A stretch of DNA of 64,000 nucleotides from Candidatus Hodarchaeota archaeon. Lineage in GTDB: Archaea > Asgardarchaeota > Lokiarchaeia > Sigyniarchaeales > SOKP01. Of this stretch, positions 8,171 to 38,210 are shown piece by piece. The notes beneath the pieces were generated by a model. It searched no databases, was not told the DNA's origin, and was given only the letters and a program-made list of their open reading frames with translations. Positions within the stretch are counted from its first letter, which is position 1. Every line of letters starts with the position of its first letter. The DNA lies in assembly GCA_048886685.1 (NCBI GenBank), contig JBHLKM010000005.1, forward strand, positions 106,958 through 170,957, read 5' to 3'. The translations under genes were made by a program, and so were the position numbers.

Positions 8171-8185
8171 ATTTTTTAAAGATGT

Positions 8186-9154: not shown

Positions 9155-9173
9155 CTTTAATTTTAACTAATTA

Positions 9174-9965: not shown

Positions 9966-9979
9966 ATTTACTAAAATTA

Positions 9980-11945: not shown

Positions 11946-11974
11946 AATCAAAGAAATTATTTTCTTTCTTTAGA

Positions 11975-14260: not shown

Positions 14261-14394
14261 TAATCAAATTCACTACAATTTATTTTGAAATGCTATATTT
14301 GATATTATTTCAATTTTATACTATTTAAGTTTAGAATTTCTCTTTTTTGTAAATATTAATGTTTAAAACAAATAGGTAATTTTTTATTGAATAT

Positions 14395-16130: not shown

Positions 16131-16133
16131 TTT

Positions 16134-16634: not shown

Positions 16635-16650
16635 AAATAATCTTTATTAT

Positions 16651-23600: not shown

Positions 23601-23618
23601 AAACGAGGTATAAAGAAA

Positions 23619-24155
23619 ATGATTCAAGACCAGGAATATAAAGGTATAAACCAAGTTTCCATCCTTATATTTCAAATTGGATGGGAGCAGTTCGTTATTG
23701 ACCTTCTTGATGTTAAAGAAATAATTCAAGCAGGGCAAATAAGAAAATTGCCAAAAAGCTTAGATTACATAGATGGAATTTATAATTACAGAGGAGAGAT
23801 AATACACGTTGTTAATTTAAAAAAAAAGTTAAACCTGAATGAGTATATGCTATATCGTTCTAAATACTCCTCTACAGAAGAAGAAAATTATAGTAACACA
23901 AAGAGATACATAATTATTTTAAAAGTGGATAATAACCTTATTGGATTTTATGTTGATCGCATTGTAAACATCGATCACATCGACATCAACGAAATTGTAG
24001 AACTTAGTCCTATTTTTCAAACAAGTGTAGCTATGGAATACATTAAAGGAGTTATAAATTTTAAGGAAAGACCAAGAATTATGCTTGATTTAGGCAAGAT
24101 TCTTAACGAAGTTGAGAAATTTAAAATCCAACAAGATCTGTCATCTTTGACATAA
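23619..24155 (+). CDS. cheW: Chemotaxis scaffold CheW
   Basis: VKEII...LPKSLDYIDGIYNYRGEIIHVVNL...IGFYVDRI...YIKGV. Confidence 0.93.
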   Translation: MIQDQEYKGINQVSILIFQIGWEQFVIDLLDVKEIIQAGQIRKLPKSLDYIDGIYNYRGEIIHVVNLKKKLNLNEYMLYRSKYSSTEEENYSNTKRYIIILKVDNNLIGFYVDRIVNIDHIDINEIVELSPIFQTSVAMEYIKGVINFKERPRIMLDLGKILNEVEKFKIQQDLSSLT

Positions 24156-24189
24156 AAATAAATTTAAAATAAAAAATGGAGTTGATTAA

Positions 24190-24585
24190 ATGACAAACGA
24201 AAAGAAAAAGGTTTTGATTGTGGATGACGCCCAATTTACTCGGAACATGCTAAAAAGTATCATTAGTAAGATTCAACTAATCGAAGTTATTGGTGAAGCT
24301 GCTAATGGTGTTGAAGCTATCGCCTTGTATAAAAAATTAAATCCTGATTTGGTTACTATGGATTTAGTTATGCCAGAAAAAGGGGGTATTGAAGCAACAG
24401 AAGAGATCTTAAAAATTAATCCGAAAGCGTTAATCGTTGTTGTATCAGCGTTGGGACAAGAAGCTCTAGTCCTTGAAGCAGCAAAGAAGGGAGCAAAAGA
24501 TTTTATACAAAAACCTTTCAAGACTGAACAAATACTTGAGGTAATGGATCGCATACTAAAAAATAAGAAAGAAGTTAAAAATTAA
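24190..24585 (+). CDS. cheY: Single-domain response regulator CheY
   Basis: VLIVDDA, PDLVTMDLVMP, VSALGQ, GAKDFIQKPF. Confidence 0.93.
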   Translation: MTNEKKKVLIVDDAQFTRNMLKSIISKIQLIEVIGEAANGVEAIALYKKLNPDLVTMDLVMPEKGGIEATEEILKINPKALIVVVSALGQEALVLEAAKKGAKDFIQKPFKTEQILEVMDRILKNKKEVKN

Positions 24586-24613
24586 ATTGTAAATTAAATA
24601 ATAGGGTGATTAA

Positions 24614-26698
24614 GTGGCAACTAACGACGATATTAAGCTTTTCATTAGTGAAGCAGAAGATCTTATTCAGAAGACTGAGGATGAGATTCTAAAACTAGAA
24701 GAGAATCCAAAAAATCCTAAACCAATTCAGGAACTTTTTTTTACATTTCACACACTTAAGGGCCTTACAGCCATGGCTGGATTTGAAAACCTTTCAAAAT
24801 TTTGTCATCACTTTGAAACCTTTTTAGAAAATACTAAAGATAAAGAGGTATCAACGAAAAAGCGAACAGATTTTATTGATATGTTATTTGAAAGTTTAGA
24901 TGTACTTCGTAATGTCTTAAAAAAAGTAAAAAAGGGAGATTTATCAGATATTGATGCCAAATTTGTAGAAGAGATAAAAGGAAGTTTTGATAATTTTGAA
25001 GCAGAATACGATATAACTTTTATCCAACCAATTTCTACAGATGAAATTACGAAAATTTTAAATGACACGCAGAAAAAACCTTATAAGATATATATCCGTT
25101 TAGAAGATACATGCGTTTTCAAAAAAGTAAGATTGTTTATCATCTTTCGAGCATTAAATGGAATTGGACGGATTTGTTGGACAAATCCTGCTCCAGAATC
25201 TTTAGAGAAAGCAATTTTAAAGAATGAATTTGAAATCTTTTATATCAGTCAAAAAAATAAAACTGAAATTTCTCATGTTTTAGACGAAATATTAGAGATT
25301 GAAAATATTGTTATTTCAACTTTAAAACCTAAAGAATTTCATGATATAATAGCAAATCTTAAGGAAAAATGGGAGAATGAACAATCAGTACCAGCAGACC
25401 ATGAAATTGAGGAGGAAAGCATCTATGAAGAGGAAGTAATAGATGAAGAACTTGAACGAGTTAGTAATATTTTAGAGGATTACTCAGACGATAGCATTAA
25501 AATTACTAGTGTAAAGGTAAATATAGAAAATTTAGAGGAATTAATGAATTATTTTGGAGAACTAGTTATAATGAAGAATCACATCAGCCAACTTCTAAAA
25601 GATAAACAAGATAGAGCCATAAATAGACTATTTGATAAAATGGACAAACCCTTTTTGGATATCCAAGAGATACTTTTTAAATTAAAGCTAATAAGAGTTG
25701 AATCAACTTTTCGAAAGTATAAAAGACTTGTTCGAGATGTAGCAAATGAAACAAGTAAAAAATTAAGATTAATTTTACAAGGGACAAATGTAGAGATTGA
25801 CCGAAAGATATTGGAAGAACTAAATTCTCCTTTAGTTCATCTCATACGAAATGCTATATATCATGGAATTGAATTACCAGCTGAAAGAAAAAAAAAGGGT
25901 AAGACCGATCTAGGAATTTTAAGGTTAAAAACATATAGAAAAGCAGGTTCTATTTATATTGAGATACAAGATGATGGGGCAGGTTTAGATTATGTCAAAA
26001 TCAAAGAGAAAATTGTTGCAAAAGGTTATTATGATCGTGAAGAAGTTAAAGAATTAACTGACGAAATCCTAAATAAATTTATTCTAATGCCAGGATTTTC
26101 GACTTTATCTGATGCTGACATAATTTCAGGAAGAGGAATGGGGCTAGCTATAGTTGCTGAGAAGATAAAAGAACTAGGAGGGGATTTTCTTATTGAATCG
26201 CAAAAAGATATTGGAACTAGATTTACTTTGGTAGTACCTTTTACACGGGCAATACTGAGGGCACAATTATTACAAGTTTCAAAGGATTTATTCGCAATCC
26301 CCACTGAGAATATTAAGCAAATTTATTTCTTCGATCAGAATAAGGTAGAATATATAGAAGGTAAGCAATATTATAAGATAGATTCGAGATTAATACCCGT
26401 CATCCATTTAGACCAGCACTTACGAATGGTAGACCTAATTGAAACAAACTCACATAAAAAAATAGCTGTTTGGTGTCAAAAAGATGAGGAAAATTCTGCT
26501 ATACTAGTTGCGGATAAACAACTTCAACAATTAGATGTGGTTGTAAAACCCTTTACATCCAGCTATTCTGATTCTCGTGATATTTTAGGATCTACAATTA
26601 CAGGAGAGGGTTCGATTTGTCTCATTCTAGATGCTTTGAGTATCATATCAAGACAGTCATCTGAATATGAAGTATCTTTAATAAATAAATTAAATTAA
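24614..26698 (+). CDS. cheA: Chemotaxis histidine kinase CheA
   Basis: Hpt FHTLKG, P2-like region, HLIRNAIYHGIE, DDGAG, PGFST, SGRGMGL, C-terminal CheW-like domain. Confidence 0.96.
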   Translation: MATNDDIKLFISEAEDLIQKTEDEILKLEENPKNPKPIQELFFTFHTLKGLTAMAGFENLSKFCHHFETFLENTKDKEVSTKKRTDFIDMLFESLDVLRNVLKKVKKGDLSDIDAKFVEEIKGSFDNFEAEYDITFIQPISTDEITKILNDTQKKPYKIYIRLEDTCVFKKVRLFIIFRALNGIGRICWTNPAPESLEKAILKNEFEIFYISQKNKTEISHVLDEILEIENIVISTLKPKEFHDIIANLKEKWENEQSVPADHEIEEESIYEEEVIDEELERVSNILEDYSDDSIKITSVKVNIENLEELMNYFGELVIMKNHISQLLKDKQDRAINRLFDKMDKPFLDIQEILFKLKLIRVESTFRKYKRLVRDVANETSKKLRLILQGTNVEIDRKILEELNSPLVHLIRNAIYHGIELPAERKKKGKTDLGILRLKTYRKAGSIYIEIQDDGAGLDYVKIKEKIVAKGYYDREEVKELTDEILNKFILMPGFSTLSDADIISGRGMGLAIVAEKIKELGGDFLIESQKDIGTRFTLVVPFTRAILRAQLLQVSKDLFAIPTENIKQIYFFDQNKVEYIEGKQYYKIDSRLIPVIHLDQHLRMVDLIETNSHKKIAVWCQKDEENSAILVADKQLQQLDVVVKPFTSSYSDSRDILGSTITGEGSICLILDALSIISRQSSEYEVSLINKLN

Positions 26699-26744
26699 AT
26701 TTTTTTTAAAAACAAATAATAAGTTTCACTGAATTAATAAAAAT

Positions 26745-28769
26745 TTGGAGGAAAAAGAAATGGGTTTTAAGAAAGTTAGTCAAGACGAATTAAAGACAAA
26801 TAGTGGTCCAGGATTTCTCGGTATGCCTATAAGAGAAGTAGGAAAAATTGTACAAACTAAAAAAAGAGAGAAAAAAATAGATTCAAATTCACTTGGCTCA
26901 ATCTCAGAGATACTGATTCTAAATGAAGAATTTTTAGAATATAAATATCAAAACACTGGGAAAAGGAACGCTTTAGCGGGTAATGGAAATATAGTAGTTT
27001 TCAACAACTCACTTAAAGATAGAATATGGGATGCTTTTTTAAAATTTACAGGAACTCAATTTGATAATCAAGATTCAGAAAAAGGTATGCATTTGGGAAT
27101 TTTTGAACCTAATTCAAACAAAATTTTGAAATATGAAATTGTTAATTCAGAAATATTACCAGATTTAGTGTCTGTAAATGAAAGCATAGAAAATCTGAGC
27201 CAAGATATTAAAAATGTAGGAAATGACTATAATGACGAAGAAGACAAAATAAGTAATAACCAAAAAAATCATATGTTGTTATTAGGAAAAGAAAATAAAG
27301 TAAAGTTTTCTATACTTGTAGAAAATAAATCTTCTTCTGTCTTAGAAAATATTAGACTTAAAAAACAATTCTCAAATAATTTCTATGATATAGACTTTAA
27401 AGGTTCAGTAAGTAAAAACATTGAAATCACTAGTAATTACATTGAATGTCCTATTAAGAATCTAAATCCAGGAGAGAAAATTGAAGTGATTCTTCATGCA
27501 AATATATTTCCAAAAAGGAAAGAAAATATTAGTACTGGAAGAATAGAGGTTTCATTTAATTTAAAGAATCAAATCATCTCAGAAGTGGAAATCAACCATT
27601 TCTCTGCATATTCTCATGCTATGCATGCTATTCGAAAAGTAGAGAAAGATCATGCTCCAAATCACTGGGATTGTTCTTTAATATTCGGAAATCGTAGTGA
27701 TTTCAAGATGAAATTAAACTCAATCTTGATTTTAGATAAATCTAAAAAGAATAAAATATTAGAACTTGATTTTAGTGACAAAATGGTAATAACAGTCCCA
27801 GGAGAGAGCTATAAAACGGAACATTTTGATTATCAAGATGAAAAAGAACCAACCTTTTCAAGAAAAGTAGATTATTCTGTCGATTATAAAGTTGAGAAAA
27901 ATTCTATGATTACAGTTCAAGTTGAAAATAGTTTATTTAAAGTAGCTAATGCATTGATCAAAAAGAAAATTGAAGAGCAGGAAATTAAGTCATTTGAAGA
28001 ATCAAAAGTTAACACTGAATTTATTGTGAGGAATCGAGGGACTATGCCAATAAAAGGGATTATAGCTCAAGAAAAAATACCTCAAGACTTTTTACCACCT
28101 AGGGATGTCTCAAATTTTCAATTTTTAAATTCTGCAGGAGAATTAAAACTTGATGATATAGCTTTAAAAATTAGTCCTGATGATGACGATCCAACACACG
28201 AACACGTTTTAGAATTGAATGTTAACTTAGAAACTAATCATAGAAGTAATTTAATAGGAGTAGATGACTTTTTAGAGGTTAAATACCCTTTAACTGCCGT
28301 AACTCCTAATTATGAAAAAGATTATGACTTTCTATTGGAGATACAATCCTATTATTCAAAATTCTTAGAGTCTGAACAAAATGAATATTATGTAATCACA
28401 GATAATATCTCTGGTATGGATAAATCCGCGTTACAAATTACTCACAAACGTCGTAAATTAATGATAGGAAAAGAAATCTTTCCTGGAAGGGACAGCAATG
28501 AATTTGCTATTTATATAACTGCAAAAAATGGTTCAAACATAAAATTATCAGATGTAAATGTTACTGACACATTCCCAGATTCGTTTGAATTAGTTTCTGC
28601 AAATATTGACCACAAACTTAGCAAAGTTGATAAGTCGGGTGAACGTAAAATATCTTTCAATTTAGATCTTTTACAACCATATCAAGAGAGAGAAATAATG
28701 TACTATTTAAAAAACATTACAGGAAAAGAGATTAAATTTTCAGAATTAGAATCATTTTTTATTGGTTAA
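26745..28769 (+). CDS. Large beta-rich protein with repeated Ig-like (DUF11-like) modules, no signal peptide
   Basis: Repeated motifs VENKSS..LENI, VRNRGT..IKGI..EKIPQDF, AKNGSN..LSDVNVTDTFPDSF. Confidence 0.6.
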   Translation: MEEKEMGFKKVSQDELKTNSGPGFLGMPIREVGKIVQTKKREKKIDSNSLGSISEILILNEEFLEYKYQNTGKRNALAGNGNIVVFNNSLKDRIWDAFLKFTGTQFDNQDSEKGMHLGIFEPNSNKILKYEIVNSEILPDLVSVNESIENLSQDIKNVGNDYNDEEDKISNNQKNHMLLLGKENKVKFSILVENKSSSVLENIRLKKQFSNNFYDIDFKGSVSKNIEITSNYIECPIKNLNPGEKIEVILHANIFPKRKENISTGRIEVSFNLKNQIISEVEINHFSAYSHAMHAIRKVEKDHAPNHWDCSLIFGNRSDFKMKLNSILILDKSKKNKILELDFSDKMVITVPGESYKTEHFDYQDEKEPTFSRKVDYSVDYKVEKNSMITVQVENSLFKVANALIKKKIEEQEIKSFEESKVNTEFIVRNRGTMPIKGIIAQEKIPQDFLPPRDVSNFQFLNSAGELKLDDIALKISPDDDDPTHEHVLELNVNLETNHRSNLIGVDDFLEVKYPLTAVTPNYEKDYDFLLEIQSYYSKFLESEQNEYYVITDNISGMDKSALQITHKRRKLMIGKEIFPGRDSNEFAIYITAKNGSNIKLSDVNVTDTFPDSFELVSANIDHKLSKVDKSGERKISFNLDLLQPYQEREIMYYLKNITGKEIKFSELESFFIG

Positions 28770-28813
28770 ATCAAATTATTTAAAAAAAAAGAAGAAAAAC
28801 TGGAGGAAAAATA

Positions 28814-29665
28814 ATGAATTTACAGTTTTATGAAACAATACAAGATAAGTCAAAAAAATATTTGACATATTTAATTGACCAGATATTGCCAAAATTCACA
28901 ATCAGTGAATTTAAATATTTTTTAGAAGATGTAACAGAGAATACTAGTAAAACCAGTAAGGGAAGAAAGGGAACAAATGAAGAACAAACAGTAGAATTTA
29001 TCAAAACTGGTGATGACAATGAAAAATTTGCAGATTTATCAAAATTAGATGAAAATCAAATAAAGACTCTATTTCAAATTTTCATCAGTAGGGAAATTAA
29101 TGACAAAATGGCAGTGAGATGGCGATTTTATCAATATATAAAATATCACCGAGGTCTAAATATAAAAGTTATAAAACTTAATAGAACATCTGAGCATTTC
29201 ATTGATTTCATTATTGAAACAGAAGAAAATGAAAAATTAATTGTTTCATGCCATGATATTCTGGAATTAAATAGCTTTAAGGAGGTTTTAAATAAAACTC
29301 CGGAGTTTGCCAAAAATCAAAAATTGAACCCTGATAGGATGATTTTTTCTGTTTACAAATCATTTCGAAACATACCAATTGAAGAGCCGTTCAAAATCGA
29401 AAACAAAGAGATAACTCCAGAGTTATGGATCGAATGGATTGAAGAAAATCTTCCTTTTAATAAAGAAGATCTTTTAATAGTCAATAATTCAGAATTAAAA
29501 CTAGCAGGATTTAACTTTACTAGTACGGAGGATTTGCTTAATTACGTATACTATAATTCGAAGGGTGGTCAAATTTCAATTTTTAAACAATCAGATTTTT
29601 TTACTGAAGCCTCTGATAATGAAGCTGAAATAGAATTACTTTGGAAAGGAATTATGATTAAATAA
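28814..29665 (+). CDS. Hypothetical protein within the che operon
   Basis: 283-aa ORF with upstream GGAGG; no motif confidently recognised. Confidence 0.7.
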   Translation: MNLQFYETIQDKSKKYLTYLIDQILPKFTISEFKYFLEDVTENTSKTSKGRKGTNEEQTVEFIKTGDDNEKFADLSKLDENQIKTLFQIFISREINDKMAVRWRFYQYIKYHRGLNIKVIKLNRTSEHFIDFIIETEENEKLIVSCHDILELNSFKEVLNKTPEFAKNQKLNPDRMIFSVYKSFRNIPIEEPFKIENKEITPELWIEWIEENLPFNKEDLLIVNNSELKLAGFNFTSTEDLLNYVYYNSKGGQISIFKQSDFFTEASDNEAEIELLWKGIMIK

Positions 29666-29697
29666 TATACAAAATAAGAAGGTAAAAGGTAATAAAA

Positions 29698-31677
29698 ATG
29701 ATAAAAAGTGAATATGAAAAAATTGAATATGGAGAAAATATAACTGCTGTTATTATAGAAGTTCAACATGAGAAATATCTAATTGAAGTTGAGAATGTCA
29801 AAGAGATATATCCACCTGGAGAATCTATAATTCCAGTGCCATTATCAGAAAAATCAATTGTCGGTGTCATTAACATCAGAGGAGAGATTTATTCCATTAT
29901 ATCATTACGGCATAATATTTTTGAAGATAGTGTAGATTATGGTTTAAATGAGCATTCAAGGATTTTACTTTTGGAATGGGAAGATTTAAATATTGCCTTA
30001 CTAGTGGACTCAGTAATCGGTGTTAGAGAATTTCCAATTTCAATTTTTAAACAGCAAGGTACAATTGTAAAAACCAATATAGATTTTAAATTTATAAAAT
30101 TAACAGGTGTTTTTCAAGATGAACCATTTATTCTTTTAGATTTGGATGCTTTAATCCAACCTTACACTAAGGCTTCCGAAAGAAGAATTGAAAAGAAAAC
30201 TAACGTAATCCCTATAGTACCGGAAAAACCAGAAGTTATACCTAAAAAAGCTAAAAAAGTTATAGAACCTGAAATAAGTTATACGGAATCTACCGTCATT
30301 CTCCCACAATCATCTAAAATGCCAAAATTAACAAAGATCCCTAATGTTGAAAAAATTGAATTGTCAGCTGATCAAAAAGATATCCTGAGAGAAATGGGGA
30401 ATATAGGAACTGGAAATGCAGTTACAGCATTATCACGACTCATCAAAAAGAAAATTGATGTAACTCTTACAGATGTAGGAATTATCTCTTTTGATCAATT
30501 ATCAGATCAGTTTGGTGGACCTAAGGAGAGGGTATGTGGAATTTTTTGTCATTTAGATGAACCTTCCCAATCTACTATATTGAATATTTTTGAGATGAAA
30601 CCTTTAATGAGTTTAATCGCAACTTTAGCTGGAAAAAAATCAAAAATTGATCCTAATAAAGTGAAAACTAAAAAAGATCTTGATGAATTCGCAATTTCAA
30701 CAATTACGGAAATGGGAAACATTATGGCGGGACACTATGCATCAGCATTAGCAGATTTATTGGAAACTAAATTAATGATCGATATACCAGAATTTGCAAT
30801 GAGTAATGCAGGTGAATTGGGGGAATTTCTCTCTCAAGAGCTTAATTCGATTGCTGACTTTATAATTATTATTAAAACATCTGTAAAGGTTTCTGATTTA
30901 AAATTAAAAGGTATTTTCTTTTTAATCCCAGGCATTAGAACTTTAAATATGTTTTTCAATAAACTTGGAATTGAACAGGAAATATCTGTTGGAAATTTAA
31001 AGGATAGCCAAGAATCAAAACAATTAGATGTTAACAAGTTGAAACTCACAGAACTTCAGAGAGATGCCCTACAAGAAGTTGGAAATATAGGTGCTGGAAA
31101 TGCTGCAAACGCTTTAGCTCAAATGATTAATAAAAGAGTTGACATTAATATTCCATTAGTAGAAATGGTTGAACTGGATGACTATGCAAATAAAATTAGT
31201 AAAAAAGATGAAAAACTTCTAGTTGCTTGGAGTAATATTATTGGAAAAACGAGAGCAACTGTTCTTACAATGTTTAATGTTAAAGATGCAATTGATATAA
31301 CCTCGATAATCGTTGATGATCCCGGTAAAAAGAAAATTGATTTAAGAAAAACTATTTCCAAGGCAGATGATTTTCCAGAACTATATAAAAGCGCTATTTC
31401 AGAATTGGGGCATATTTTAGGAAGTCATTATGTTAGTGCTATAGGAGATCTTTTAGGTATACGTTTAATGACCGAACCCCCTGATATGAGTGTGGATACT
31501 GGTCAACAACTATTTAGTATATTGAAAGAAGAAATAGGGCTCTTAAAGAAATTATCTCTGGTAATTACCACAAGTGTTATTATTAAAGATATTGAAATTG
31601 TAGGTACATTCTTATTTATTCCAAGTCTCGATACTTTACAAGATCTTTTAGACGCTTTACTAAATTTCTACTCTTAA
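29698..31677 (+). CDS. CheW-CheC-CheC fusion protein
   Basis: N-terminal CheW (IVGVINIRGEIYSII, LLVDSV), Pro/Lys-rich linker, two CheC domains (EMGNIGTGNA, EMGNIMAG, EVGNIGAGNA, ELGHILG). Confidence 0.9.
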   Translation: MIKSEYEKIEYGENITAVIIEVQHEKYLIEVENVKEIYPPGESIIPVPLSEKSIVGVINIRGEIYSIISLRHNIFEDSVDYGLNEHSRILLLEWEDLNIALLVDSVIGVREFPISIFKQQGTIVKTNIDFKFIKLTGVFQDEPFILLDLDALIQPYTKASERRIEKKTNVIPIVPEKPEVIPKKAKKVIEPEISYTESTVILPQSSKMPKLTKIPNVEKIELSADQKDILREMGNIGTGNAVTALSRLIKKKIDVTLTDVGIISFDQLSDQFGGPKERVCGIFCHLDEPSQSTILNIFEMKPLMSLIATLAGKKSKIDPNKVKTKKDLDEFAISTITEMGNIMAGHYASALADLLETKLMIDIPEFAMSNAGELGEFLSQELNSIADFIIIIKTSVKVSDLKLKGIFFLIPGIRTLNMFFNKLGIEQEISVGNLKDSQESKQLDVNKLKLTELQRDALQEVGNIGAGNAANALAQMINKRVDINIPLVEMVELDDYANKISKKDEKLLVAWSNIIGKTRATVLTMFNVKDAIDITSIIVDDPGKKKIDLRKTISKADDFPELYKSAISELGHILGSHYVSAIGDLLGIRLMTEPPDMSVDTGQQLFSILKEEIGLLKKLSLVITTSVIIKDIEIVGTFLFIPSLDTLQDLLDALLNFYS

Positions 31678-31737
31678 ATTTATTCTTTTCTAAAAATATA
31701 TTTAATATATTTTTTTTTTCAATTTTAAGAAAAGTTT

Positions 31738-32340
31738 TTGAAACTTAAAACAAGTATTTTGAGCCCAAAAAAAGATGAACGAATTATGTTAAGAACTGGT
31801 TATTACGATTATATATATAAGGTAGATGGAGAAACAATAAAATTAAAACCAGAAAAAATTTTTGATCCTTCAGGAGTATATTTAATCGTAGATAAAGAGT
31901 TAAAACTCATATGGATTTGGGCAGGTAGCCATTCTCGTTTATTTCATAGGTATATGGCTGCGAACTGGGCTGGGAAATTAAAAACTAAAAAAAAATTCTA
32001 CAATTTCAAGTATGAAGTTATTAAACAAGGATTAGAACCCACTGAATTCGGTATAATTTACAAAGAAATTAAGGAAAATAGAACTGATTTAACATATCCC
32101 GGCCAATCGAGAGATGATTTAATTAATAGTGAACCATTAGATGAGTATATTTCAAGAACTTCACCCAGTCAAGCTAAAACAATGGACTTGCTTTCGGATA
32201 GCACTTTAATATCTAAATCTGATAAATCTCGAATAAGAAAGATATTATCTGAAATAAAGGAAATGCAAAGCCATATTAAATATTCTATTGAACATATTCA
32301 ACAACGTTTTACTGAAATTGAAAAAATATTAGGTAGATAG
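31738..32340 (+). CDS. Single gelsolin-domain protein with C-terminal coiled coil; alternative ATG at 31786
   Basis: FDPSGVYLIVD..LIWIWAGSHSRLFHRYMAANWAGKL...EVIKQGLEPTEF fits the gelsolin core (xxDxxxxIxxWxGxxS...A...A...QGxExxEF); heptad-like tail. Confidence 0.8.
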   Translation: MKLKTSILSPKKDERIMLRTGYYDYIYKVDGETIKLKPEKIFDPSGVYLIVDKELKLIWIWAGSHSRLFHRYMAANWAGKLKTKKKFYNFKYEVIKQGLEPTEFGIIYKEIKENRTDLTYPGQSRDDLINSEPLDEYISRTSPSQAKTMDLLSDSTLISKSDKSRIRKILSEIKEMQSHIKYSIEHIQQRFTEIEKILGR

Positions 32341-33371
32341 TGAGTTCAAAATTGATCAAAATTGAAAATATTCAAATGGATGGAGATTATTATTCTTTAC
32401 TGCTTGAATATTTGGGTAATAAAACAGCGTTAAATTTTGAATATTATCGTAGGAATTTAGTGGAGAGGAGATTAAAAGCAAGAGTGATTCGGGTTAAATG
32501 TAGCACTCTTCATTCTTATTATTATTATATCAAAGATAATCCTGTTGAGATTGAGAAATTTATCGACAGTTTTAACATTAATTATTCTTGTTTTTTCAGA
32601 AATTGCGAAGTTTTTCAGCAATTTGAAAATTTTTTTTTGAAGTGTTTAAATTATAAGAGAGAAGATATTCTTACCAATTTGAAACCAAAACGCAAAGGAA
32701 AATCAAAAGGTTCATTAAAAAATAAAAAAAATTCAGATAATAGAAGTCAATATAGGAAATTAATGATAATGAAATCTGAAAATGCACTTAAATTTTCTGA
32801 AAAAACATCTCTCTATAGAAAAATAAATGGAGCTTCAAGATCGAAGGAAATTATCAGAATATGGTCATGTCCTTATGCTTCTGGTGAAGAACCTTATTCG
32901 ATTGCAATAATTTTAGATAATTTGAAAAACCAGATACCTGAATTTCCTCAATTTAAGATTATTGCATCAGATATTGATAATGATGCTATTAATAAAGCAC
33001 ACATAGGACTTTATAATGAAAATGTCATGCGAGAAATTTCAAAATTCAATGAAGAGAATTATTTTATAAAAAATGAAAGTAAGTTTGGTTATAAATACTT
33101 AATTAATGAGGACCTCAAGAAATATGTAGAATTTATTGAGGAAGATATTACAAAAGGTTATGAAAAAACTAAAAAATATGATATAATATTTTGTCGATAT
33201 CTTCTAATTTATATAAGTCGAGAGGCACGGAACAATTTCTTGGAAATTATTGAAAAGCAATTAAACCCTGGCGGGTTATTGATTTTAGGTAAAACAGAAA
33301 CCTTATTTAATTCATATAATACGCTTAAATTAATCGACTCCCGTAATCATATCTATTTAAAAATTAATTAA
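32340..33371 (+). CDS. cheR: Chemotaxis methyltransferase CheR
   Basis: INYSCFFRN, IRIWSCPYASGEEPYSIA, ASDID, YDIIFCRYLLIY, GGLLILGKTE. Confidence 0.93.
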   Translation: MSSKLIKIENIQMDGDYYSLLLEYLGNKTALNFEYYRRNLVERRLKARVIRVKCSTLHSYYYYIKDNPVEIEKFIDSFNINYSCFFRNCEVFQQFENFFLKCLNYKREDILTNLKPKRKGKSKGSLKNKKNSDNRSQYRKLMIMKSENALKFSEKTSLYRKINGASRSKEIIRIWSCPYASGEEPYSIAIILDNLKNQIPEFPQFKIIASDIDNDAINKAHIGLYNENVMREISKFNEENYFIKNESKFGYKYLINEDLKKYVEFIEEDITKGYEKTKKYDIIFCRYLLIYISREARNNFLEIIEKQLNPGGLLILGKTETLFNSYNTLKLIDSRNHIYLKIN

Positions 33372-33389
33372 AGATGAATTTATTAGTAA

Positions 33390-34535
33390 ATGTCAATCAG
33401 AGTATTACTTGCCGAGGATTCCGCATATCAAAGAAAAATTATTTTTGAAATGATTACATCGAATGAGGAAATTGAAGTCTTAGATGTTGCTAAAAATGGA
33501 AAGGAGGCAATTCAAAAGATAGGAGAGCATAATCCAGATGTAATTCTATTAGATCTTATAATGCCTGAAGTCGATGGATTATCTGTTCTCAAATTCCTTT
33601 CAGAACACTATCCAATCCCAACGATAGTTTTTACAGGTCTCAAACTTGAATCTTTGGATGATTCTGTTCAGGCCCTACTTTTGGGTGCTTTTGATTTTAT
33701 TATTAAACCGACTGGCTATTGGGAAGAGGAATTTCCTAAATTTAAAGAAAAGCTGATTTCTAGCATTTTATATGCTGGTAAAATAAAAAAAAGTTATGAA
33801 AAACGTAACACACTTATTAAAGAATCAATTTACACCCATTTCAGTTCGGATATAGAAGATAAAAAAAACATAACTAGCAAACCAGTAAAACCAGTAGCTT
33901 CTGAAATATCAAAAATAACTTCTTCAGATATAACAAATTTAAAATCTAATATTATAGTAATAGGAACCAGTACTGGAGGACCTAGAACCTTAAAATCAAT
34001 TTTAAAAAAGATTCCAAAAGATTTTCCTAGCCCTATTTTAATGGTGCAGCATCTAGATGCTTTTTTTATGAAGCAACTCGCTAAATCTTTAAATGATGTT
34101 TGTGAAATTGAAATTAAAATCCCAGTAAATGGTGAAAAGATTCAGCCGGAAAAAGTATACCTTAGCCCTGGAGGTAATCATATGCAAGTTGTAATGAGAA
34201 ATAACTCCCCCTGTATTAAGATTTTTAAAGGTGAGCCAGTTAATTTTTGCATGCCCTCTGTAGATGTATTATTTTTTTCTGTCGCAGAAATTTATAAACA
34301 ACATTCAATGGGCATTCTTTTAACAGGATTAGGAGATGATGGTGCAGCAGGTTTAGATGCTATTAAATTAGCTGGAGGGAAAACAATAGCTGAATCTGAA
34401 GAAACTTGTGTTGTGTATGGAATGCCAAAAGCAGCTGTGAAAAGCGGTGCTGCTAAATTAATTCTTCCAAATTATCAGATTCGAGATTATATGATGAAAT
34501 TTGCTAAAAACTTTACTTTTGATCTTAAAAACTAA
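33390..34535 (+). CDS. cheB: Chemotaxis methylesterase CheB (receiver plus esterase)
   Basis: Receiver LDLIMP; catalytic GTSTGG, VQH, PSVDVLF, LTGLGDDG. Confidence 0.95.
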   Translation: MSIRVLLAEDSAYQRKIIFEMITSNEEIEVLDVAKNGKEAIQKIGEHNPDVILLDLIMPEVDGLSVLKFLSEHYPIPTIVFTGLKLESLDDSVQALLLGAFDFIIKPTGYWEEEFPKFKEKLISSILYAGKIKKSYEKRNTLIKESIYTHFSSDIEDKKNITSKPVKPVASEISKITSSDITNLKSNIIVIGTSTGGPRTLKSILKKIPKDFPSPILMVQHLDAFFMKQLAKSLNDVCEIEIKIPVNGEKIQPEKVYLSPGGNHMQVVMRNNSPCIKIFKGEPVNFCMPSVDVLFFSVAEIYKQHSMGILLTGLGDDGAAGLDAIKLAGGKTIAESEETCVVYGMPKAAVKSGAAKLILPNYQIRDYMMKFAKNFTFDLKN

Positions 34536-34553
34536 CTAAATAAGTAATTTAAA

Positions 34554-35102
34554 ATGACCGAACACCACCAAATAGGTAAAATTGAAGAGACAGACGGAAA
34601 TGGAGTAATCAATTTACCTATTGGTCATTATGCTATTGTTAATAATAAATATAGATTAGGCAAATTATATCCTAAGATTTCTATTTATGGAATAGGTTCA
34701 TGCATAGCTTTAATTCTTTGTGATTACATCAATTATGTTTGTGGGATGTCTCATATTTTGCTTCCCAAAACTACAAAAAAAATTATTAAATATCCTCATA
34801 AGTTTGCTAATTTATCTGCAATCCTCTTAATGCAAGAATTAATAAATTATGGAGCTGAAAGAAGGCATATTAAGGCAATTATCATAGGAGGATCCAGGAT
34901 ATTTGATTTGGATGACAATCTTATGGGATTTGATAATATTGGTTCCATAAAAGAAGAATTGAATAAATTAAATATTGATATTATTAAAGAAGATACAGGG
35001 GGATCAAAAGGGAGAATTGTCATTTTTGATTCTCAAGATTTTTCCTTATCTGTTAGATCTACTGGAGAAAATGATTTCAATATATTTACAAACTTAGAAT
35101 AA
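34554..35102 (+). CDS. cheD: Chemoreceptor glutamine deamidase CheD
   Basis: GIGSCIAL, GMSHILLP, KFA, IIGGSRIF, EDTGGSKGR. Confidence 0.93.
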   Translation: MTEHHQIGKIEETDGNGVINLPIGHYAIVNNKYRLGKLYPKISIYGIGSCIALILCDYINYVCGMSHILLPKTTKKIIKYPHKFANLSAILLMQELINYGAERRHIKAIIIGGSRIFDLDDNLMGFDNIGSIKEELNKLNIDIIKEDTGGSKGRIVIFDSQDFSLSVRSTGENDFNIFTNLE

Positions 35103-35134
35103 AAATAATTAGAAAATGAAAAGAGAGACTAAAA

Positions 35135-35809
35135 TTGAACCCAAATATTAATAATGACAAACAATTTGAAGGATTTAAACTAACATCAGAACAGTTAGAT
35201 ACGTTGATGGAACTAGGAAATATTGGTTCTGGACATGCAATAACAGCCCTTTCAAAATTATTAAACAATGAAATAGAAGTTTCCTTAACATCAGCCGAGG
35301 TTATTCCTTTTTGGAAGGTTCCTGAATTGTTCGATACTTCTAATGTAGAGGTATTTGGGATCTATTCTGAGATTCCATTCAATTCAGATATGTCAATAAT
35401 TCAAATATTCACAAAAGAATCACTCATTAATTTAATTAATCTCCTTAATATCAATGATACGATTTTAATTGAAAAGATAAGAAATATTGAGGATCTAGAT
35501 GATCTTTCTATAAGTATAATAACTGAAATAGGTAATATATTAACTGGACATTATGCAAGTGCTTTGGCAGATACATTATCAACTAAAATAATCCCGAATG
35601 TTCCAACCGTAGCACTTGATACAATAAATGCGATGTTAAACGGTATAATTGCTAAATACTCTCAATTATCAGATTATCTAGTAATAATAAGAACGAAAAT
35701 AGGATTACCAGAAATTAAATTAAATTGTATAATGTGTTTTATCCCTTCTATAAACATTTTAACAAATCTATTTACCCTTTTAAATATAAAATATAATTTA
35801 AATCTATAG
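35135..35809 (+). CDS. cheC: CheY-P phosphatase CheC
   Basis: ELGNIGSGHAITALS and EIGNILTG...PNVP. Confidence 0.9.
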   Translation: MNPNINNDKQFEGFKLTSEQLDTLMELGNIGSGHAITALSKLLNNEIEVSLTSAEVIPFWKVPELFDTSNVEVFGIYSEIPFNSDMSIIQIFTKESLINLINLLNINDTILIEKIRNIEDLDDLSISIITEIGNILTGHYASALADTLSTKIIPNVPTVALDTINAMLNGIIAKYSQLSDYLVIIRTKIGLPEIKLNCIMCFIPSINILTNLFTLLNIKYNLNL

Positions 35810-35815
35810 AAAGAA

Positions 35816-36775
35816 ATGTCAAGAATAAACATGTTAGAAGATCTGCTTTCCAATCTTTTAAATGAAGTAAACGATCTTTCTGCAGCTTTAGTTGTAGACT
35901 TAGATGGGCTAATTATTGCTAAAAAATCAAATGGTGGATTTGATGAAGAATTAATTGGTGCTATTATGGGTATTCTTGAACAAACAATCAATAGGATTAA
36001 AAAGTATACAGAAACGTCATTTGGAAGTGGAACTCTTGACACTAATGAGTTTCAATTATTTTATATAGAATTAAGTAAAGTAGTCCCAGCAATTTTTGTA
36101 TTGGTTGGGGACCAATATTCAAATATTAACCAATTTATTCCTTACGCATATATAGTAGCAGAAAAAATTTCATTGATTTTAAATAATCGAGAAATCCCTG
36201 TAAATCTTCCAAAATTAACTAATTCTGCAGAAATAATATTAGAACCCGAGTCTAATACCCAATATGGCAATAATAATGTAAACAAAATAGTTGTCGTTGG
36301 ATCTGAGGCGGTTGGGAAAAGTTCATTGGTTGAAATGTATAGGGAAGGAATATTTGAAGAAATATATAAACCCACGATTGGAATTTCAATTAAAGAGAAA
36401 AAACTTCAAATTTCCAAAGACTTTAATTTATTCCTATATCTCCTTGACTTAGGGGGTCTTAAAAGTTTTGCCAAAATTCGCAAATTTTATTATAATTATT
36501 CAAACGCAGTTCTAATTTTGTTTGATTATACCAAAACGGAAACATTTAATAATATCTCTGATTGGATTGAAGAATTACGTAAATTTATCAAAAATAAGTC
36601 GATCCCAGTTGTTCTCATAGGAAATAAAATCGACCTTGTTGAAAATCGTGAAGAAATTAGGATTAAGGCAGAAAATCTAGCAGAGCAATATAACATCCCA
36701 TTCTTTGAAACTTCAGCATATACTGGTGAAGGTATAGATGAATTGTTTACTTACTTAATTTCAACCTTGTTTTAG
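35816..36775 (+). CDS. Roadblock/LC7-small GTPase (Rab-like) fusion
   Basis: N-terminal ALVVDLDGLIIA (roadblock); G1 GSEAVGKS, G2 PTIG, G3 DLGG, G4 NKID, G5 ETSA; no C-terminal Cys prenylation motif. Confidence 0.9.
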   Translation: MSRINMLEDLLSNLLNEVNDLSAALVVDLDGLIIAKKSNGGFDEELIGAIMGILEQTINRIKKYTETSFGSGTLDTNEFQLFYIELSKVVPAIFVLVGDQYSNINQFIPYAYIVAEKISLILNNREIPVNLPKLTNSAEIILEPESNTQYGNNNVNKIVVVGSEAVGKSSLVEMYREGIFEEIYKPTIGISIKEKKLQISKDFNLFLYLLDLGGLKSFAKIRKFYYNYSNAVLILFDYTKTETFNNISDWIEELRKFIKNKSIPVVLIGNKIDLVENREEIRIKAENLAEQYNIPFFETSAYTGEGIDELFTYLISTLF

Positions 36776-36845
36776 CATTTAAATAAGTATAAATTATAGT
36801 GCACTACTATTTATTAGATCAATTAGACTTTATAGGGAGATTTAG

Positions 36846-38210
36846 TTGTCAATCGACGTTATAATTGCTGACGATTCTGCGTATTTAAGAAAAAGCATTG
36901 CTGATATTCTTAAAGGCAGTGAAATAGTAAATATTTTAGAATTTGCTAAAGATGGAGAAGAAGCCATTAAGTTTGTCAAGAAATTTAGCCCAGATGTTTT
37001 AGTTTTAGACTTAGTAATGCCTAAAATGAATGGATTAGATGCTTTCAAAGTGATCATGGAAGAGCGCCCAACACCTACAGTTATTCTCTCAGCCATAAGT
37101 CCTAAAAACCTTGATTCATCTATTCAGGCACTTTTAATGGGAGCCTTTGATTATATTATAAAACCGGGGGGAATTGGTGCTAAAGATTTACCACGATTCC
37201 GTGAAGAATTACTAGCTAAAGTACTTTTAGCTTCTCAATCACAAATCAAGAAAATTTTTAGAAAAGAAGATGGAGTTTATAGAAAGAATAAATCGATAAG
37301 GCAAGAAATAGTTGATCAAATCTTTGATTTTGGGCAATATTTGAATACCCTAACACCTATTACAGAAGCTGAGGAAAATCAACAAGTAATAGATATTGGT
37401 AAAACTAAAGAAGTACAGAAAGAGTTAACAACTAAATCAATAATAAAGCAAACTGAAAAAGTAGATGAATTGCGAATAGAGAAATCTATAAAACCTAAAG
37501 ATCCAGTAAATTTATCTAGTATTAATGCTACTAAGCCCTTTATAAGAACTTCATTACAGAAATCTCTACCAAGTTTGCAGAAAAGAAAAGAACCACCTTA
37601 CAATCCTAACCTAACTCCCATTAAAGGAGTTTCTCTCACATCAAATATAATTGTAATTGGTGCTAGTGTAGGTGGACCTCGTACTATCACTACTATATTA
37701 AAAGAAATTCCTAGAAATTTCCCTGCTCCTATTTTAGTAGTTCAACATTTATCAGCTCATTTTACAGAAGCTTTTGCGGATAATTTAGATATGGAATGTA
37801 AATTAAAAGTTAAAGTGGCGACTAATGGAGAGTATATTAAACCTAGAGAAATTTATATTGCTCCAGGAGAAAGTCATATGGAAATTTCAGTTGATGATAA
37901 AAGACCTTGTATTAAAATATATAAAGGTAAACCAGTAAACTTTTGCATGCCTTCAATAGATGTTTTATTCTATTCAGCAGCAAGAGTGTATCGAGATCGA
38001 ACTATGGGGGTATTACTAACTGGTATGGGCTCTGATGGTGTTGAGGGGTTAGCTTCTATCCAAAAAGTAGGTGGGAAAACAATTTCAGAATCTGAGGAAA
38101 CATCTATTTTATTTGCTATGCCAAAATTCGCAGCAGAAAAGGGTTATGCTGATTTGGTTTTACCAAATTACTCAATTTACTCTGAAATTATTAAATTTGG
38201 CAGAAAATGA
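36846..38210 (+). CDS. cheB: Second CheB with a long interdomain linker
   Basis: Receiver LDLVMP; GASVGG, VQH, PSIDVLF, LTGMGSDG. Confidence 0.93.
   Translation: MSIDVIIADDSAYLRKSIADILKGSEIVNILEFAKDGEEAIKFVKKFSPDVLVLDLVMPKMNGLDAFKVIMEERPTPTVILSAISPKNLDSSIQALLMGAFDYIIKPGGIGAKDLPRFREELLAKVLLASQSQIKKIFRKEDGVYRKNKSIRQEIVDQIFDFGQYLNTLTPITEAEENQQVIDIGKTKEVQKELTTKSIIKQTEKVDELRIEKSIKPKDPVNLSSINATKPFIRTSLQKSLPSLQKRKEPPYNPNLTPIKGVSLTSNIIVIGASVGGPRTITTILKEIPRNFPAPILVVQHLSAHFTEAFADNLDMECKLKVKVATNGEYIKPREIYIAPGESHMEISVDDKRPCIKIYKGKPVNFCMPSIDVLFYSAARVYRDRTMGVLLTGMGSDGVEGLASIQKVGGKTISESEETSILFAMPKFAAEKGYADLVLPNYSIYSEIIKFGRK

What the first reader, a model, noticed from the sequence alone, without database searches (positions are those of the whole stretch)
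35816..36775. Roadblock-Rab-like GTPase fusion between cheC and cheB, with Leu at the catalytic Gln position
Seen: it starts 6 nt after cheC. G1-G5 are intact, but switch II reads DLGGL where Ras/Rab have DxxGQ. Established: Q-to-L at this position impairs GTP hydrolysis in Ras-family proteins, and roadblock proteins act as GAPs or scaffolds (MglB, Ragulator). Inference: an MglA/MglB-like or Rag-like switch in a single chain that needs an external or fused activator and may be gated by the Che pathway.
Basis: partly seen in the sequence, partly recalled or inferred. Interest (0 to 1): 0.8.

Follow-up and report, generated by a model that had tools for sequence, protein, structure and literature searches.

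The report
Glutamine-less roadblock-GTPase in chemotaxis operon
An Asgard (Loki-type) archaeon carries, inside its chemotaxis gene cluster, a roadblock domain fused to a Ras-like GTP switch whose whole family lacks the usual catalytic glutamine; this makes it a testable, still unproven, link between bacterial-style chemical sensing and eukaryote-like G-protein signalling.

Summary
ORF 35816-36775(+) encodes 319 aa. Residues 1-122 fold as an MglB-like roadblock domain. A 30-aa linker follows, then a Ras-like GTPase with G1-G5 intact and D-L-G-G-L in switch II, where Leu215 aligns with the catalytic Gln of Rab23.

The Leu is a family trait. None of 127 close relatives has Gln (L86, I23, a few S/K/F/V/T/A). 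In the same genome, 51 of 77 small-GTPase domains have Gln, as do 8 of the roughly 10 other roadblock-GTPase paralogues.

Every one of 33 orthologous loci from other genomes lies next to che genes, in five different neighbour arrangements. cheB2 follows directly in 24 of 34 loci. The gene stays with cheB2 even where an ATPase operon splits the cluster.

It is dispensable: at least two lineages deleted it, each time together with the in-cluster cheR. A longer paralogue clade left the che cluster.

CheF is absent from 397 of 398 Asgard genomes searched. I found no archaellin in this genome.

Best reading: an accessory GTP switch of this Che pathway with a long-lived GTP state. Whether it is an output, an adaptation regulator or a positioning factor is inferred, not shown.

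The roadblock-GTPase architecture is published. I did not find the che linkage or the family-wide Gln loss in the literature. The scan has reached the same reading on other genomes.

The parts
35816..36775 (+). Whole gene ('RobG'), 319 aa: roadblock domain + linker + Ras-like GTPase
   Evidence: AF2 full-length model has pLDDT 84.8 and pTM 0.85. 535 homologues, those listed nearly all about 312-325 aa (a few longer or partial); every source name that gives an organism is an Asgard archaeon.
35816..36181 (+). N-terminal roadblock (MglB-like) domain, residues 1-122
   Evidence: AF2 domain model plus Foldseek: MglB 1j3w/3t1r/3t12 at E about 2e-6; LAMTOR, Rag C-terminal domains and Asgard roadblocks follow. 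It is the most conserved part of the protein: mean top-residue frequency 0.73 against 0.68 for the G domain.
36182..36274 (+). Linker, residues 123-153, with invariant Pro132 in an LPKL motif
   Evidence: Low pLDDT at 146-151. K117 and P132 are at least 90% conserved in both the Gln-less family and the Gln-bearing roadblock-GTPase paralogues.
36275..36772 (+). Ras-like GTPase domain, residues 154-319
   Evidence: Pfam Ras E 3e-39. PDB sequence hits: Rab23 at 1e-26 and Thorarchaeota Rab 7ezb at 7.5e-25. Foldseek hits to Rab27, KRAS and Rab1 with TM (target) about 0.85.
36299..36322 (+). P-loop (G1) GSEAVGKS; Glu164 occupies the Ras Gly12 position
   Evidence: G162, G167 and K168 are invariant. 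Position 164 is never Gly in the 32 aligned orthologues (mostly E).
36374..36376 (+). Switch I Thr187 (G2)
   Evidence: Invariant in alignment A1 and in both paralogue groups.
36446..36460 (+). Switch II DLGGL (G3); Leu215 (CTT, 36458-36460) at the catalytic Gln position
   Evidence: Across the family: L86, I23, S7, K3, F2, V2, T2, A2, Q0 of 127.
36623..36634 (+). G4 NKID (guanine specificity)
   Evidence: N270, K271 and D273 are invariant.
36707..36718 (+). G5 ETSA
   Evidence: S300 is invariant; E298 and A301 are at least 90% conserved.
35135..35809 (+). cheC, immediately upstream (6-nt gap)
   Evidence: Pfam CheC and NCBIfam CheC. It is the upstream neighbour of RobG in 22 of 34 loci.
36846..38210 (+). 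cheB2: REC + roughly 150-aa linker + methylesterase, immediately downstream (70-nt gap)
   Evidence: Pfam. It is the downstream neighbour within 46-279 nt in 24 of 34 loci, including loci where the pair is detached from the main cluster.
22779..38210 (+). Whole co-oriented che cluster. Order: unknown 273 aa, cheW, cheY, cheA, DUF11-like, unknown 283 aa, cheW-cheC fusion, unknown 200 aa, cheR, cheB1, cheD, cheC, RobG, cheB2
   Evidence: It holds the only CheA found in this genome by tblastn.

Best explanation
RobG is an accessory G-protein switch dedicated to the Che pathway of one group of Lokiarchaeia.

Shown:
- It keeps every residue needed to bind GTP/GDP and Mg2+ and to sense the gamma-phosphate (the P-loop Lys and Ser, Thr187, Gly214, NKxD, SA).
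- Its whole family has replaced the catalytic Gln with a hydrophobic residue. Position 12 of the P-loop is never Gly.
- I found no family-specific polar residue in the G domain that could replace the Gln in cis.

Inferred mechanism:
- Intrinsic hydrolysis is very slow, so the GTP form is long-lived.
- Switching therefore depends on partners that bind the MglB-like roadblock domain. That domain probably also dimerises the protein, as roadblock domains do in MglB and the Rags.
- The likeliest partners are receiver-domain proteins of the same operon: CheB2, whose gene follows RobG in most genomes, or CheY.
- The Che phospho-signal would thus be converted into a GTPase state that acts on non-motor machinery. 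This parallels the Myxococcus Frz system, which acts through response regulators on MglA/MglB.
For: Motifs, and Leu at the Gln position.

Family-wide Gln loss: 0 of 127 have Gln. In the same genome, 51 of 77 GTPase domains have Gln, as do 8 of about 10 roadblock-GTPase paralogues. The Gln-less family forms one clade (support 100), apart from the Gln-bearing paralogues.

Thr187, Gly214 and the nucleotide-binding residues are invariant, which argues for a working switch rather than a dead domain.

MglB-like fold.

che linkage:
- 33 of 33 short-type loci in other genomes are che-adjacent, with five different upstream neighbours (cheC, cheB1, cheR, the 200-aa gene, an ATPase-USP block).
- 31 of 42 genomes with the operon marker have the gene, against 1 of 91 without it.
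- It is as conserved as its che neighbours; in L002, for example, identities are CheD 80, CheC 85, RobG 86 and CheB2 85%.
- None of the other roadblock-GTPase paralogues of this genome lies beside a che gene.

No canonical output: CheF occurs in 1 of 398 Asgard genomes while CheB occurs in 105. This genome, rated 100% complete, has no CheF and no archaellin.

Precedent: Frz response regulators act on MglA/MglB, and FrzX-P localises in an MglB-dependent way (PMC3441718; PMC13408092).
Against: - There is no biochemical or interaction data.
- The gene is dispensable. G191, G204 and G184 keep the rest of the operon without it, most genus g5 genomes lack it, and 70 of 105 CheB-bearing Asgard genomes have no orthologue. 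It cannot be the general Asgard Che output.
- Its place among the adaptation genes, and its co-loss with cheR, fit an adaptation role at least as well as an output role.
- MglB supplies no catalytic residue. An MglB-like domain therefore would not by itself rescue a Gln-less active site.
Confidence: 0.45

Rival explanations
1. RobG is an input to, or regulator of, the adaptation branch. Its GTP/GDP state (cellular energy or nutrient status, in the manner of the Rags) tunes receptor methylation by recruiting or gating CheB2, CheR, CheD or CheC. It would not carry the output.
For: - It always lies in the cheR-cheB-cheD-cheC part of the cluster, not beside cheA, cheY or cheW.
- It stays paired with cheB2 where an A/V-type ATPase operon separates the pair from the main cluster (L059, L060; in L063 the pair follows the same ATPase-USP block on its own contig).
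- At least two independent deletions of RobG each coincide with deletion or truncation of the non-adjacent in-cluster cheR, while cheB1, cheD and cheC between them are kept.
Against: - cheB2 persists without RobG (L047-L049), and RobG occurs without an adjacent cheB2 (L032, L039 and genus g13).
- The conserved motif in the cheB2 linker is unchanged in genomes that lack RobG.
- Other cheR paralogues exist elsewhere in G191 and G204 (none found in the 76%-complete G184).
- No interaction has been tested.
Confidence: 0.25
2. RobG positions or assembles the array. As a dimeric GTP-bound scaffold it would place or partition the chemoreceptor array in the cell. This would parallel the ParA-like ATPases ParC and PpfA, which are encoded in bacterial che operons, and the MglA/SofG-type GTPases that position motility machinery.
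For: - An NTPase encoded inside a che operon has this precedent (ParC/PpfA; my own knowledge, not checked here).
- Putative chemoreceptor arrays have been seen in a Lokiarchaeon with a complex, protrusion-bearing shape (PMC9834061).
- A long-lived GTP state suits a scaffold.
- A positioning factor can be dispensable, as this gene is.
Against: - There is no membrane anchor or amphipathic terminus. The protein ends in LISTLF with no Cys.
- There is no similarity to ParA or MinD.
- I found no localisation data.
Confidence: 0.12
3. RobG is a static pseudo-GTPase: a permanently GTP-bound (or nucleotide-free) structural subunit with no switching at all.
For: The catalytic Gln is lost, position 12 is not Gly, and there is no candidate replacement residue in cis.
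Against: Thr187 and Gly214 are invariant. These two residues couple the switch regions to the gamma-phosphate. The full G1-G5 set is also conserved across 127 sequences. Pseudo-GTPases usually let these motifs decay (my own knowledge).
Confidence: 0.1
4. RobG is a hitch-hiker: one of about 75 small-GTPase genes that happens to sit in the operon and is inherited with it, with no functional tie to chemotaxis.
For: - Small GTPases are very numerous in this genome.
- The loci are related by descent, so they are not independent observations.
- The gene is dispensable.
Against: - Linkage survives at least five different rearrangements across nine or more genera and three GTDB families.
- Presence tracks the operon class, 31 of 42 against 1 of 91.
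- Conservation equals that of the core che genes.
- The one derived clade that left the che cluster also gained about 115 C-terminal residues and a new conserved three-gene neighbourhood.
Confidence: 0.05

Closest known systems
MglA/MglB polarity module controlled by the Frz chemosensory system (Myxococcus xanthus; structures from Thermus thermophilus)
   Same: - A Ras-superfamily GTPase works with a roadblock-fold regulator.
- MglB is the best structural match of the N-terminal domain.
- A Che-like pathway acts on the GTPase module through receiver-domain proteins (PMC3441718, PMC13408092).
   Different: - Here the roadblock domain and the GTPase are one chain, and the gene lies inside the che operon. 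In Myxococcus, mglA is not near the genes of these partners (RomR, Frz) (PMC4316618).
- The G domain is Ras-like, not MglA-like.
- MglA hydrolyses GTP with its own Gln and Arg finger, which MglB repositions. RobG has neither.
Asgard roadblock-GTPase ('RB-GTPase') fusion architectures predicted in Prometheoarchaeum MK-D1 (Tran et al. 2024, PMC10933270)
   Same: - The domain order is the same: roadblock N-terminal to a small GTPase, with no switch-II insert.
- This genome has about 10 such paralogues.
- K117 and P132 are shared across Gln-bearing and Gln-less members.
   Different: That paper catalogues architectures from AF2 models. The passages I read report no che linkage and no Gln-less clade. 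According to PMC9834061, MK-D1 lacks the chemotaxis gene set. The paralogues in this genome mostly keep Gln.
Rag/Gtr GTPases with Ragulator (eukaryotes and Asgard RagGtr)
   Same: - A GTPase is covalently joined to a roadblock domain that dimerises and docks on other roadblock or longin proteins.
- Q-to-L forms are the standard GTP-locked state, for example RagA-Q66L in 6s6d.
   Different: - The domain order is reversed.
- The Ras profile scores 134.5 bits against 22.7 for Gtr1_RagA.
- No paired second Rag-like gene lies in the operon.
Group 1 Rup GTPases of bacteria (Wuichet and Sogaard-Andersen 2015, PMC4316618)
   Same: They are prokaryotic Ras-like GTPases that lack the G3 catalytic Gln. 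They are encoded beside signal-transduction genes, and the authors proposed that a partner supplies the missing residue in trans.
   Different: They are single-domain and bacterial. Their neighbours are cyclic-di-GMP or histidine-kinase proteins, not che genes, and they have no fused roadblock domain.
ParC/PpfA ParA-like ATPases encoded in bacterial che operons (own knowledge)
   Same: An accessory P-loop NTPase is embedded in a chemotaxis operon and is dispensable for signalling chemistry.
   Different: They belong to a different NTPase class (deviant Walker A ATPases). They have no roadblock domain, and their known role is array positioning.

Membership tests
Roadblock/LC7 superfamily (MglB-like) | helix-strand-strand-helix-strand-strand-strand-helix fold matching solved roadblock proteins | tested here: met
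   AF2 model of residues 1-138, pLDDT 85. Foldseek gives MglB 1j3w/3t1r/3t12 at E about 2e-6, probability 1.00, TM 0.67-0.70, followed by LAMTOR, Rag C-terminal domains and Asgard roadblocks 7f8m and 7yh1.
Roadblock/LC7 superfamily (MglB-like) | Pfam PF03259 at or above the gathering score | tested here: not met
   17.8 bits against a cut-off of 23, over residues 9-51 only. Several orthologues carry a precomputed PF03259 hit. A profile of the domain searched against PDB sequences gave only a weak hit to the roadblock protein CvnB5 (E 0.63).
Roadblock/LC7 superfamily (MglB-like) | Homo- or heterodimerisation through the beta-sheet edge and helix 2 | not testable with these tools
   No multimer prediction was available. 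Helix 2 (residues 44-64) is highly conserved.
Ras superfamily small GTPase (Asgard 'RasL' group) | G1-G5 nucleotide-binding motifs and the Ras-family profile | tested here: met
   Pfam Ras 134.5 bits against a cut-off of 21.6. GxxxxGKS, Thr187, DxxG, NKxD and SA are invariant or nearly so. Placement in RasL is inferred from the profile match; I did not test it by phylogeny with reference sets.
Ras superfamily small GTPase (Asgard 'RasL' group) | Catalytic Gln after DxxG (Ras Gln61) | tested here: not met
   Leu215 aligns with Rab23 Gln68. None of 127 family members has Gln.
MglA family | Intrinsic catalytic Gln plus an intrinsic switch-I Arg finger (Miertzschke 2011, as cited in PMC4316618) | tested here: not met
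   There is no Gln. Switch I reads Y-K-P-T-I-G with no conserved Arg.
Rag/Gtr family | N-terminal GTPase followed by a C-terminal roadblock domain; the Gtr1_RagA profile is the best match | tested here: not met
   The order is roadblock then GTPase. Gtr1_RagA scores 22.7 bits against 134.5 for Ras.
Eukaryotic-type Rab | C-terminal prenylatable Cys motif | tested here: not met
   The protein ends in LISTLF and has no Cys near the C-terminus. The orthologues end similarly.
Asgard RB-GTPase fusion architecture (Tran et al. 2024) | Roadblock domain N-terminal to a small GTPase, with no switch-II insert | tested here: met
   Switch II aligns to Rab23 without gaps. The architecture is described in PMC10933270.
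Component of a Che (chemosensory) system | Conserved membership of che gene clusters across genomes | tested here: met
   33 of 33 short-type loci in other genomes are che-adjacent. 31 of 42 genomes with the operon marker have the gene, against 1 of 91 without.
Component of a Che (chemosensory) system | Physical or functional interaction with Che proteins | not testable with these tools
   This needs binding assays or multimer models.
HAS-GTPases (hydrophobic residue substituted for the catalytic Gln; own knowledge of Mishra et al. 2005) | Hydrophobic residue at the Gln position | tested here: met
   L, I, V or F in 113 of 127 members.
HAS-GTPases (hydrophobic residue substituted for the catalytic Gln; own knowledge of Mishra et al. 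2005) | Potassium-dependent type: a conserved Asn in the P-loop (GxxNxGKS), as in MnmE, Era and FeoB (own knowledge) | tested here: not met
   The P-loop is GSEAVGKS, and its fourth position is variable across orthologues. The Era/Der/MnmE NCBIfam scores lie far below their cut-offs.

The most novel reading that the evidence does not exclude
In these archaellum-less Lokiarchaeia, the Che pathway's output would be a Ras-like GTPase switch rather than a rotary motor. Phosphorylated receiver domains (CheY or CheB2) would set the state of the roadblock-GTPase. That state would then steer actin or membrane remodelling through the gelsolin-like and other non-che genes of the same operon. This would be a prokaryotic receptor-to-small-GTPase-to-cytoskeleton chemotaxis circuit in the closest relatives of eukaryotes.
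Probability: 0.15. Interest if true: 0.9.

Novelty: new variant of a known kind. Interest (0 to 1): 0.62.

Why it matters
Asgard archaea have chemotaxis genes and, at least in one cultured species, putative receptor arrays. The canonical archaeal adaptor to the motor, CheF, is nevertheless missing from almost all of them (1 of 398 genomes here). What their chemosensory systems control is therefore an open question.

A eukaryote-type small GTPase with a naturally 'GTP-locked' active site, fixed inside the che operon across dozens of species, gives a concrete protein to test. It can be expressed, assayed for nucleotide binding and hydrolysis, and screened against a short list of operon-encoded partners.

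If it relays Che signals, it would join two signalling systems normally treated as separate: bacterial two-component chemotaxis and Ras-type G-protein switching. It would do so in the lineage nearest to eukaryotes.

If it only tunes adaptation or positions the array, it is still a new accessory class for Che systems.

Tried and rejected
I took context from GTDB genome handles instead.
- A profile of the N-terminal domain searched against PDB sequences gave nothing significant. The fold search settled the roadblock identity.
- I could not obtain model coordinates. The contact between the roadblock domain and the GTPase, and whether it covers the switch regions as MglB does on MglA, was not analysed. 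A pTM of 0.85 only hints at a fixed arrangement.
The ESM Atlas gave only weak roadblock/longin leads (score 0.83), and hhalign against the RobG roadblock profile found nothing (probability 0.2).
- The careful tree search did not finish in time. The tree I cite is the quick IQ-TREE run with SH-aLRT support only.
- I looked for a family-specific polar residue that might replace the Gln and found none. The Gln-less-specific positions are mostly hydrophobic, plus K220 (Arg in the paralogues) and G306.
- I looked for a cheB2 linker motif that is lost when RobG is lost. The conserved motif persists in genomes without RobG.
- I rejected MglA, Rag, true-Rab and potassium-dependent HAS-GTPase membership (see the membership test).
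- Literature searches found no paper that describes a che-linked GTPase in Asgard archaea. Subscription journals are not covered.
Full report
**What is there**

The ORF at 35816-36775(+) encodes 319 residues. It starts six bases after the TAG of cheC and ends 70 nt before the TTG start of a second cheB. The window has about 29% G+C. It carries archaeal markers (aEF2, FttA) and Asgard-type genes. Where homologues of the ORF carry an organism name, it is an Asgard archaeon.

The gene is the thirteenth of fourteen co-oriented genes. Their order is: a 273-aa unknown, cheW, cheY, cheA, a DUF11-like 674-aa protein, a 283-aa unknown, a cheW-cheC fusion, a 200-aa unknown, cheR, cheB1, cheD, cheC, this gene, cheB2.

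**Domains**

Residues 157-317 match the Pfam Ras family at E 3e-39. The Roc, Arf and Gtr1_RagA profiles match far more weakly. The best solved relatives by sequence are Rab23, Rab39B, Rab27A and the Thorarchaeota Rab 7ezb, at E 1e-26 to 1e-24. By fold the best are Rab27, KRAS and Rab1.

The N-terminal part gives only a sub-threshold Robl_LC7 hit. An AF2 model of residues 1-138 (pLDDT 85) has the roadblock order of helices and strands. Its best Foldseek matches are MglB of Thermus (1j3w, 3t1r, 3t12; E about 2e-6) and of Myxococcus, then LAMTOR subunits, the Rag C-terminal domains and solved Asgard roadblocks. The full-length model has pLDDT 84.8 and pTM 0.85. I could not inspect the contact between the domains, because coordinates are not exposed.

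**The Leu**

G1 (GSEAVGKS), Thr187, DLGG, NKID and ETSA are all present. The phmmer alignment to Rab23 lays 'dlggl' on 'dtagq', so Leu215 (CTT at 36458-36460) takes the place of the catalytic Gln. This is a family character, not a private mutation or a sequencing error.
- In 32 aligned orthologues the position is L, I or F.
- In 127 full-length relatives it is L86, I23, S7, K3, F2, V2, T2, A2 and never Q.
- In this genome, 51 of 77 small-GTPase domains have Gln and 15 have Glu. Of about ten other roadblock-GTPase paralogues, only one (a 674-aa protein, with Ile) also lacks Gln.

On a quick maximum-likelihood tree the Gln-less proteins form one clade (SH-aLRT 100), apart from the Gln-bearing paralogues.

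The residues that bind nucleotide and Mg2+ and sense the gamma-phosphate are invariant in both groups: G162, G167, K168, T187, G189, D211, N270, K271, D273 and S300 (G214 is invariant in alignment A1). K117 and P132, at the junction of the roadblock domain and the linker, are also invariant in both. No polar residue specific to the Gln-less clade stands out in the G domain.

The position equivalent to Ras Gly12 is Glu here and is never Gly in the orthologues.

Q-to-L at this position is the standard way of locking Ras, Rab and Rag proteins in the GTP form. Several of the matched PDB entries are such mutants: Rab8a Q67L, Rab33B Q92L, Rab3B Q81L and RagA Q66L. The inference is a real nucleotide switch with very slow intrinsic hydrolysis. 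This is not shown.

**Link to chemotaxis**

A search of 398 genomes of the phylum found orthologues (E at most 1e-70) in 41 of them: 38 in the window's GTDB family and one each in two other families of the same class.

I fetched 43 loci from other genomes. They fall into two types.

Short type, 312-325 aa, 33 loci:
- Every locus lies directly beside che genes.
- The upstream neighbour is cheC (22 of 34 loci, counting the window itself), the 200-aa gene (6, two of them about 14 kb away across an inserted ATPase block), cheB1 (2) or cheR (1).
- cheB2 follows within 46-279 nt in 24 of 34.
- In genera g4 and g7 a complete A/V-type ATPase operon, a Zn-ribbon membrane protein and a universal stress protein separate the main che cluster from the pair RobG-cheB2, which stays together (L059, L060). 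In one g13 genome (L063) the pair follows the same block, with the rest of the che cluster on another contig.

Long type, 430-437 aa, about 115 extra C-terminal residues, 9 loci:
- One further divergent locus (L044, 407 aa, 38% identity) is also not che-linked.
- The long type is monophyletic (support 100) and nested inside the short type.
- It has no che gene within 8 kb.
- It sits instead in a conserved three-gene module.
- Two genomes carry both types, so the long form is a paralogue that left the operon.

The CheW-CheC fusion marks this operon class. It occurs in 42 of 133 genomes of the family. 31 of those have short RobG, against 1 of 91 without the marker.

RobG is as conserved as its che neighbours. 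None of the other roadblock-GTPase paralogues of this genome lies next to a che gene.

**Limits**

The gene is not essential to the operon.
- G191 and G184 have the syntenic cluster without it. G204 keeps only a 53-residue remnant between cheC and cheB2.
- By CheB2 similarity, G191 is closest to RobG-bearing genomes, while G204 and G184 group elsewhere. That implies at least two independent losses.
- In each case the in-cluster cheR, four genes away, is also deleted or truncated, while cheB1, cheD and cheC in between are kept. Other cheR paralogues remain elsewhere in G191 and G204; none was found in G184, which is 76% complete.
- Most genomes of genus g5 have the operon without cheR, cheB or RobG in it.
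- 70 of 105 CheB-bearing Asgard genomes have no orthologue.

**What the pathway might control**

This genome is rated 100% complete with 8.4% contamination. In it I found no CheF, no archaellin, only one MCP signalling domain and one CheA. Matches to pilus-type ATPases are weak. Across the phylum CheF occurs in 1 of 398 genomes. The usual archaeal route from CheY to a motor is therefore not available.

Rodrigues-Oliveira et al. (PMC9834061) report che genes and putative receptor arrays in a cultured Lokiarchaeon. The passages I read do not mention a GTPase among the che genes.

**Comparison with what is known**

- The roadblock-then-GTPase architecture is published for Prometheoarchaeum MK-D1 (Tran et al. 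2024, PMC10933270).
- The functional parallel is Myxococcus. There the Frz chemosensory system acts through response regulators on MglA and its roadblock partner MglB (PMC3441718; PMC13408092). In that system the proteins are separate, the genes are unlinked, and MglA keeps its own Gln and Arg finger.
- Bacterial Group 1 Rup GTPases also lack the Gln and sit beside signalling genes. A residue supplied in trans has been proposed for them.
- RobG fails defining features of MglA, Rag and true Rab (see the membership test). Asgard Ras-like proteins are not specifically related to Rabs.

I found no paper describing a che-embedded GTPase in Asgard archaea. The library does not cover subscription journals.

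**Earlier notes of this scan**

Notes on this genome, and follow-up reports on at least five other genomes, describe the same gene family and reach the same reading. My tests were run independently and agree with them. They add four points:
- the pairing with cheB2;
- the split by the ATPase operon;
- the repeated co-loss with cheR;
- the nested long paralogue with its own gene module.

**Verdict**

It is a new variant of a known kind (a roadblock-GTPase fusion), distinguished by family-wide loss of the catalytic Gln and fixation in a chemotaxis operon. Whether it is an output, an adaptation regulator or a scaffold cannot be decided from sequence.

Noticed in passing
L047 (G191:C3), L048 (G204:C16), L049 (G184:C27): Three same-genus genomes keep the whole che cluster but lack both RobG and the in-cluster cheR. 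Remnants are left: 53 aa of RobG in L048 and about 50 aa of cheR in L047. By CheB2 similarity these are at least two independent events. Other cheR paralogues exist elsewhere in G191 and G204; none was found in G184 (76% complete).
   Followed up: partly
L060 (G151:C18) 3609-17315; L059 (G163:C7); L063 (G273:C128) 1-10332: In L059 and L060 a complete A/V-type ATPase operon (subunits c, C/AC39, F, E, A, B, D, I), a Zn-ribbon membrane protein and a universal stress protein lie on the same strand between the main che cluster and the RobG-cheB2 pair. In L063 the same block precedes the pair, with the rest of the che cluster on another contig. It recalls the v-ATPase-Ragulator-Rag association in eukaryotes, but it may be a chance rearrangement.
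   Followed up: partly
L033, L034, L036, L038, L040-L042, L045, L046 (around position 8000 in each): A paralogue clade of the Gln-less roadblock-GTPase has about 115 extra C-terminal residues and is never near che genes. In 9 of 9 loci it sits with a roughly 190-aa and a roughly 164-aa protein that have no Pfam match.
   Followed up: partly
G000:C1:10138-12219 (outside the window): The only MCP signalling-domain hit in this genome (a 276-aa frame) lies 1.3 kb upstream of a paralogue (37% identity) of the 273-aa first gene of the che operon.
   Followed up: no
whole genome G000: 15 of 77 small-GTPase domains carry Glu at the catalytic Gln position (for example DFAGEER, often with xKxD and ECSS motifs). 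They appear to form a second non-Gln class.
   Followed up: no
window 37170-37370 (CheB2 residues about 110-175): The long CheB2 linker begins with a conserved helical stretch and an RQE..IF.FG.Y.N.L.PI.E motif. About 90 low-complexity Lys/Glu-rich residues follow. The motif is kept in genomes that lack RobG.
   Followed up: partly
phylum-wide (398 genomes): CheF (PF04283) occurs in 1 of 398 Asgard genomes while CheB occurs in 105. The output of Asgard Che systems is therefore generally unexplained.
   Followed up: partly
window 47562-49928 (-): A 788-aa protein with PCI, DDRGK and UFM1-ligase-like winged-helix repeats and a weak, sub-threshold C-terminal match to VPS28 (21.5 bits against a cut-off of 24.5). 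It looks like an Asgard eukaryotic-signature protein.
   Followed up: no
window 14395-15288 (+): An ATP-grasp protein that matches the inositol 1,3,4-trisphosphate 5/6-kinase family.
   Followed up: no
homologues P0004, P0005: Proteins 82% identical to RobG are labelled 'Candidatus Thorarchaeota' in NCBI, while the GTDB-based search places all orthologues in one class. The public MAG labels are probably inconsistent.
   Followed up: no
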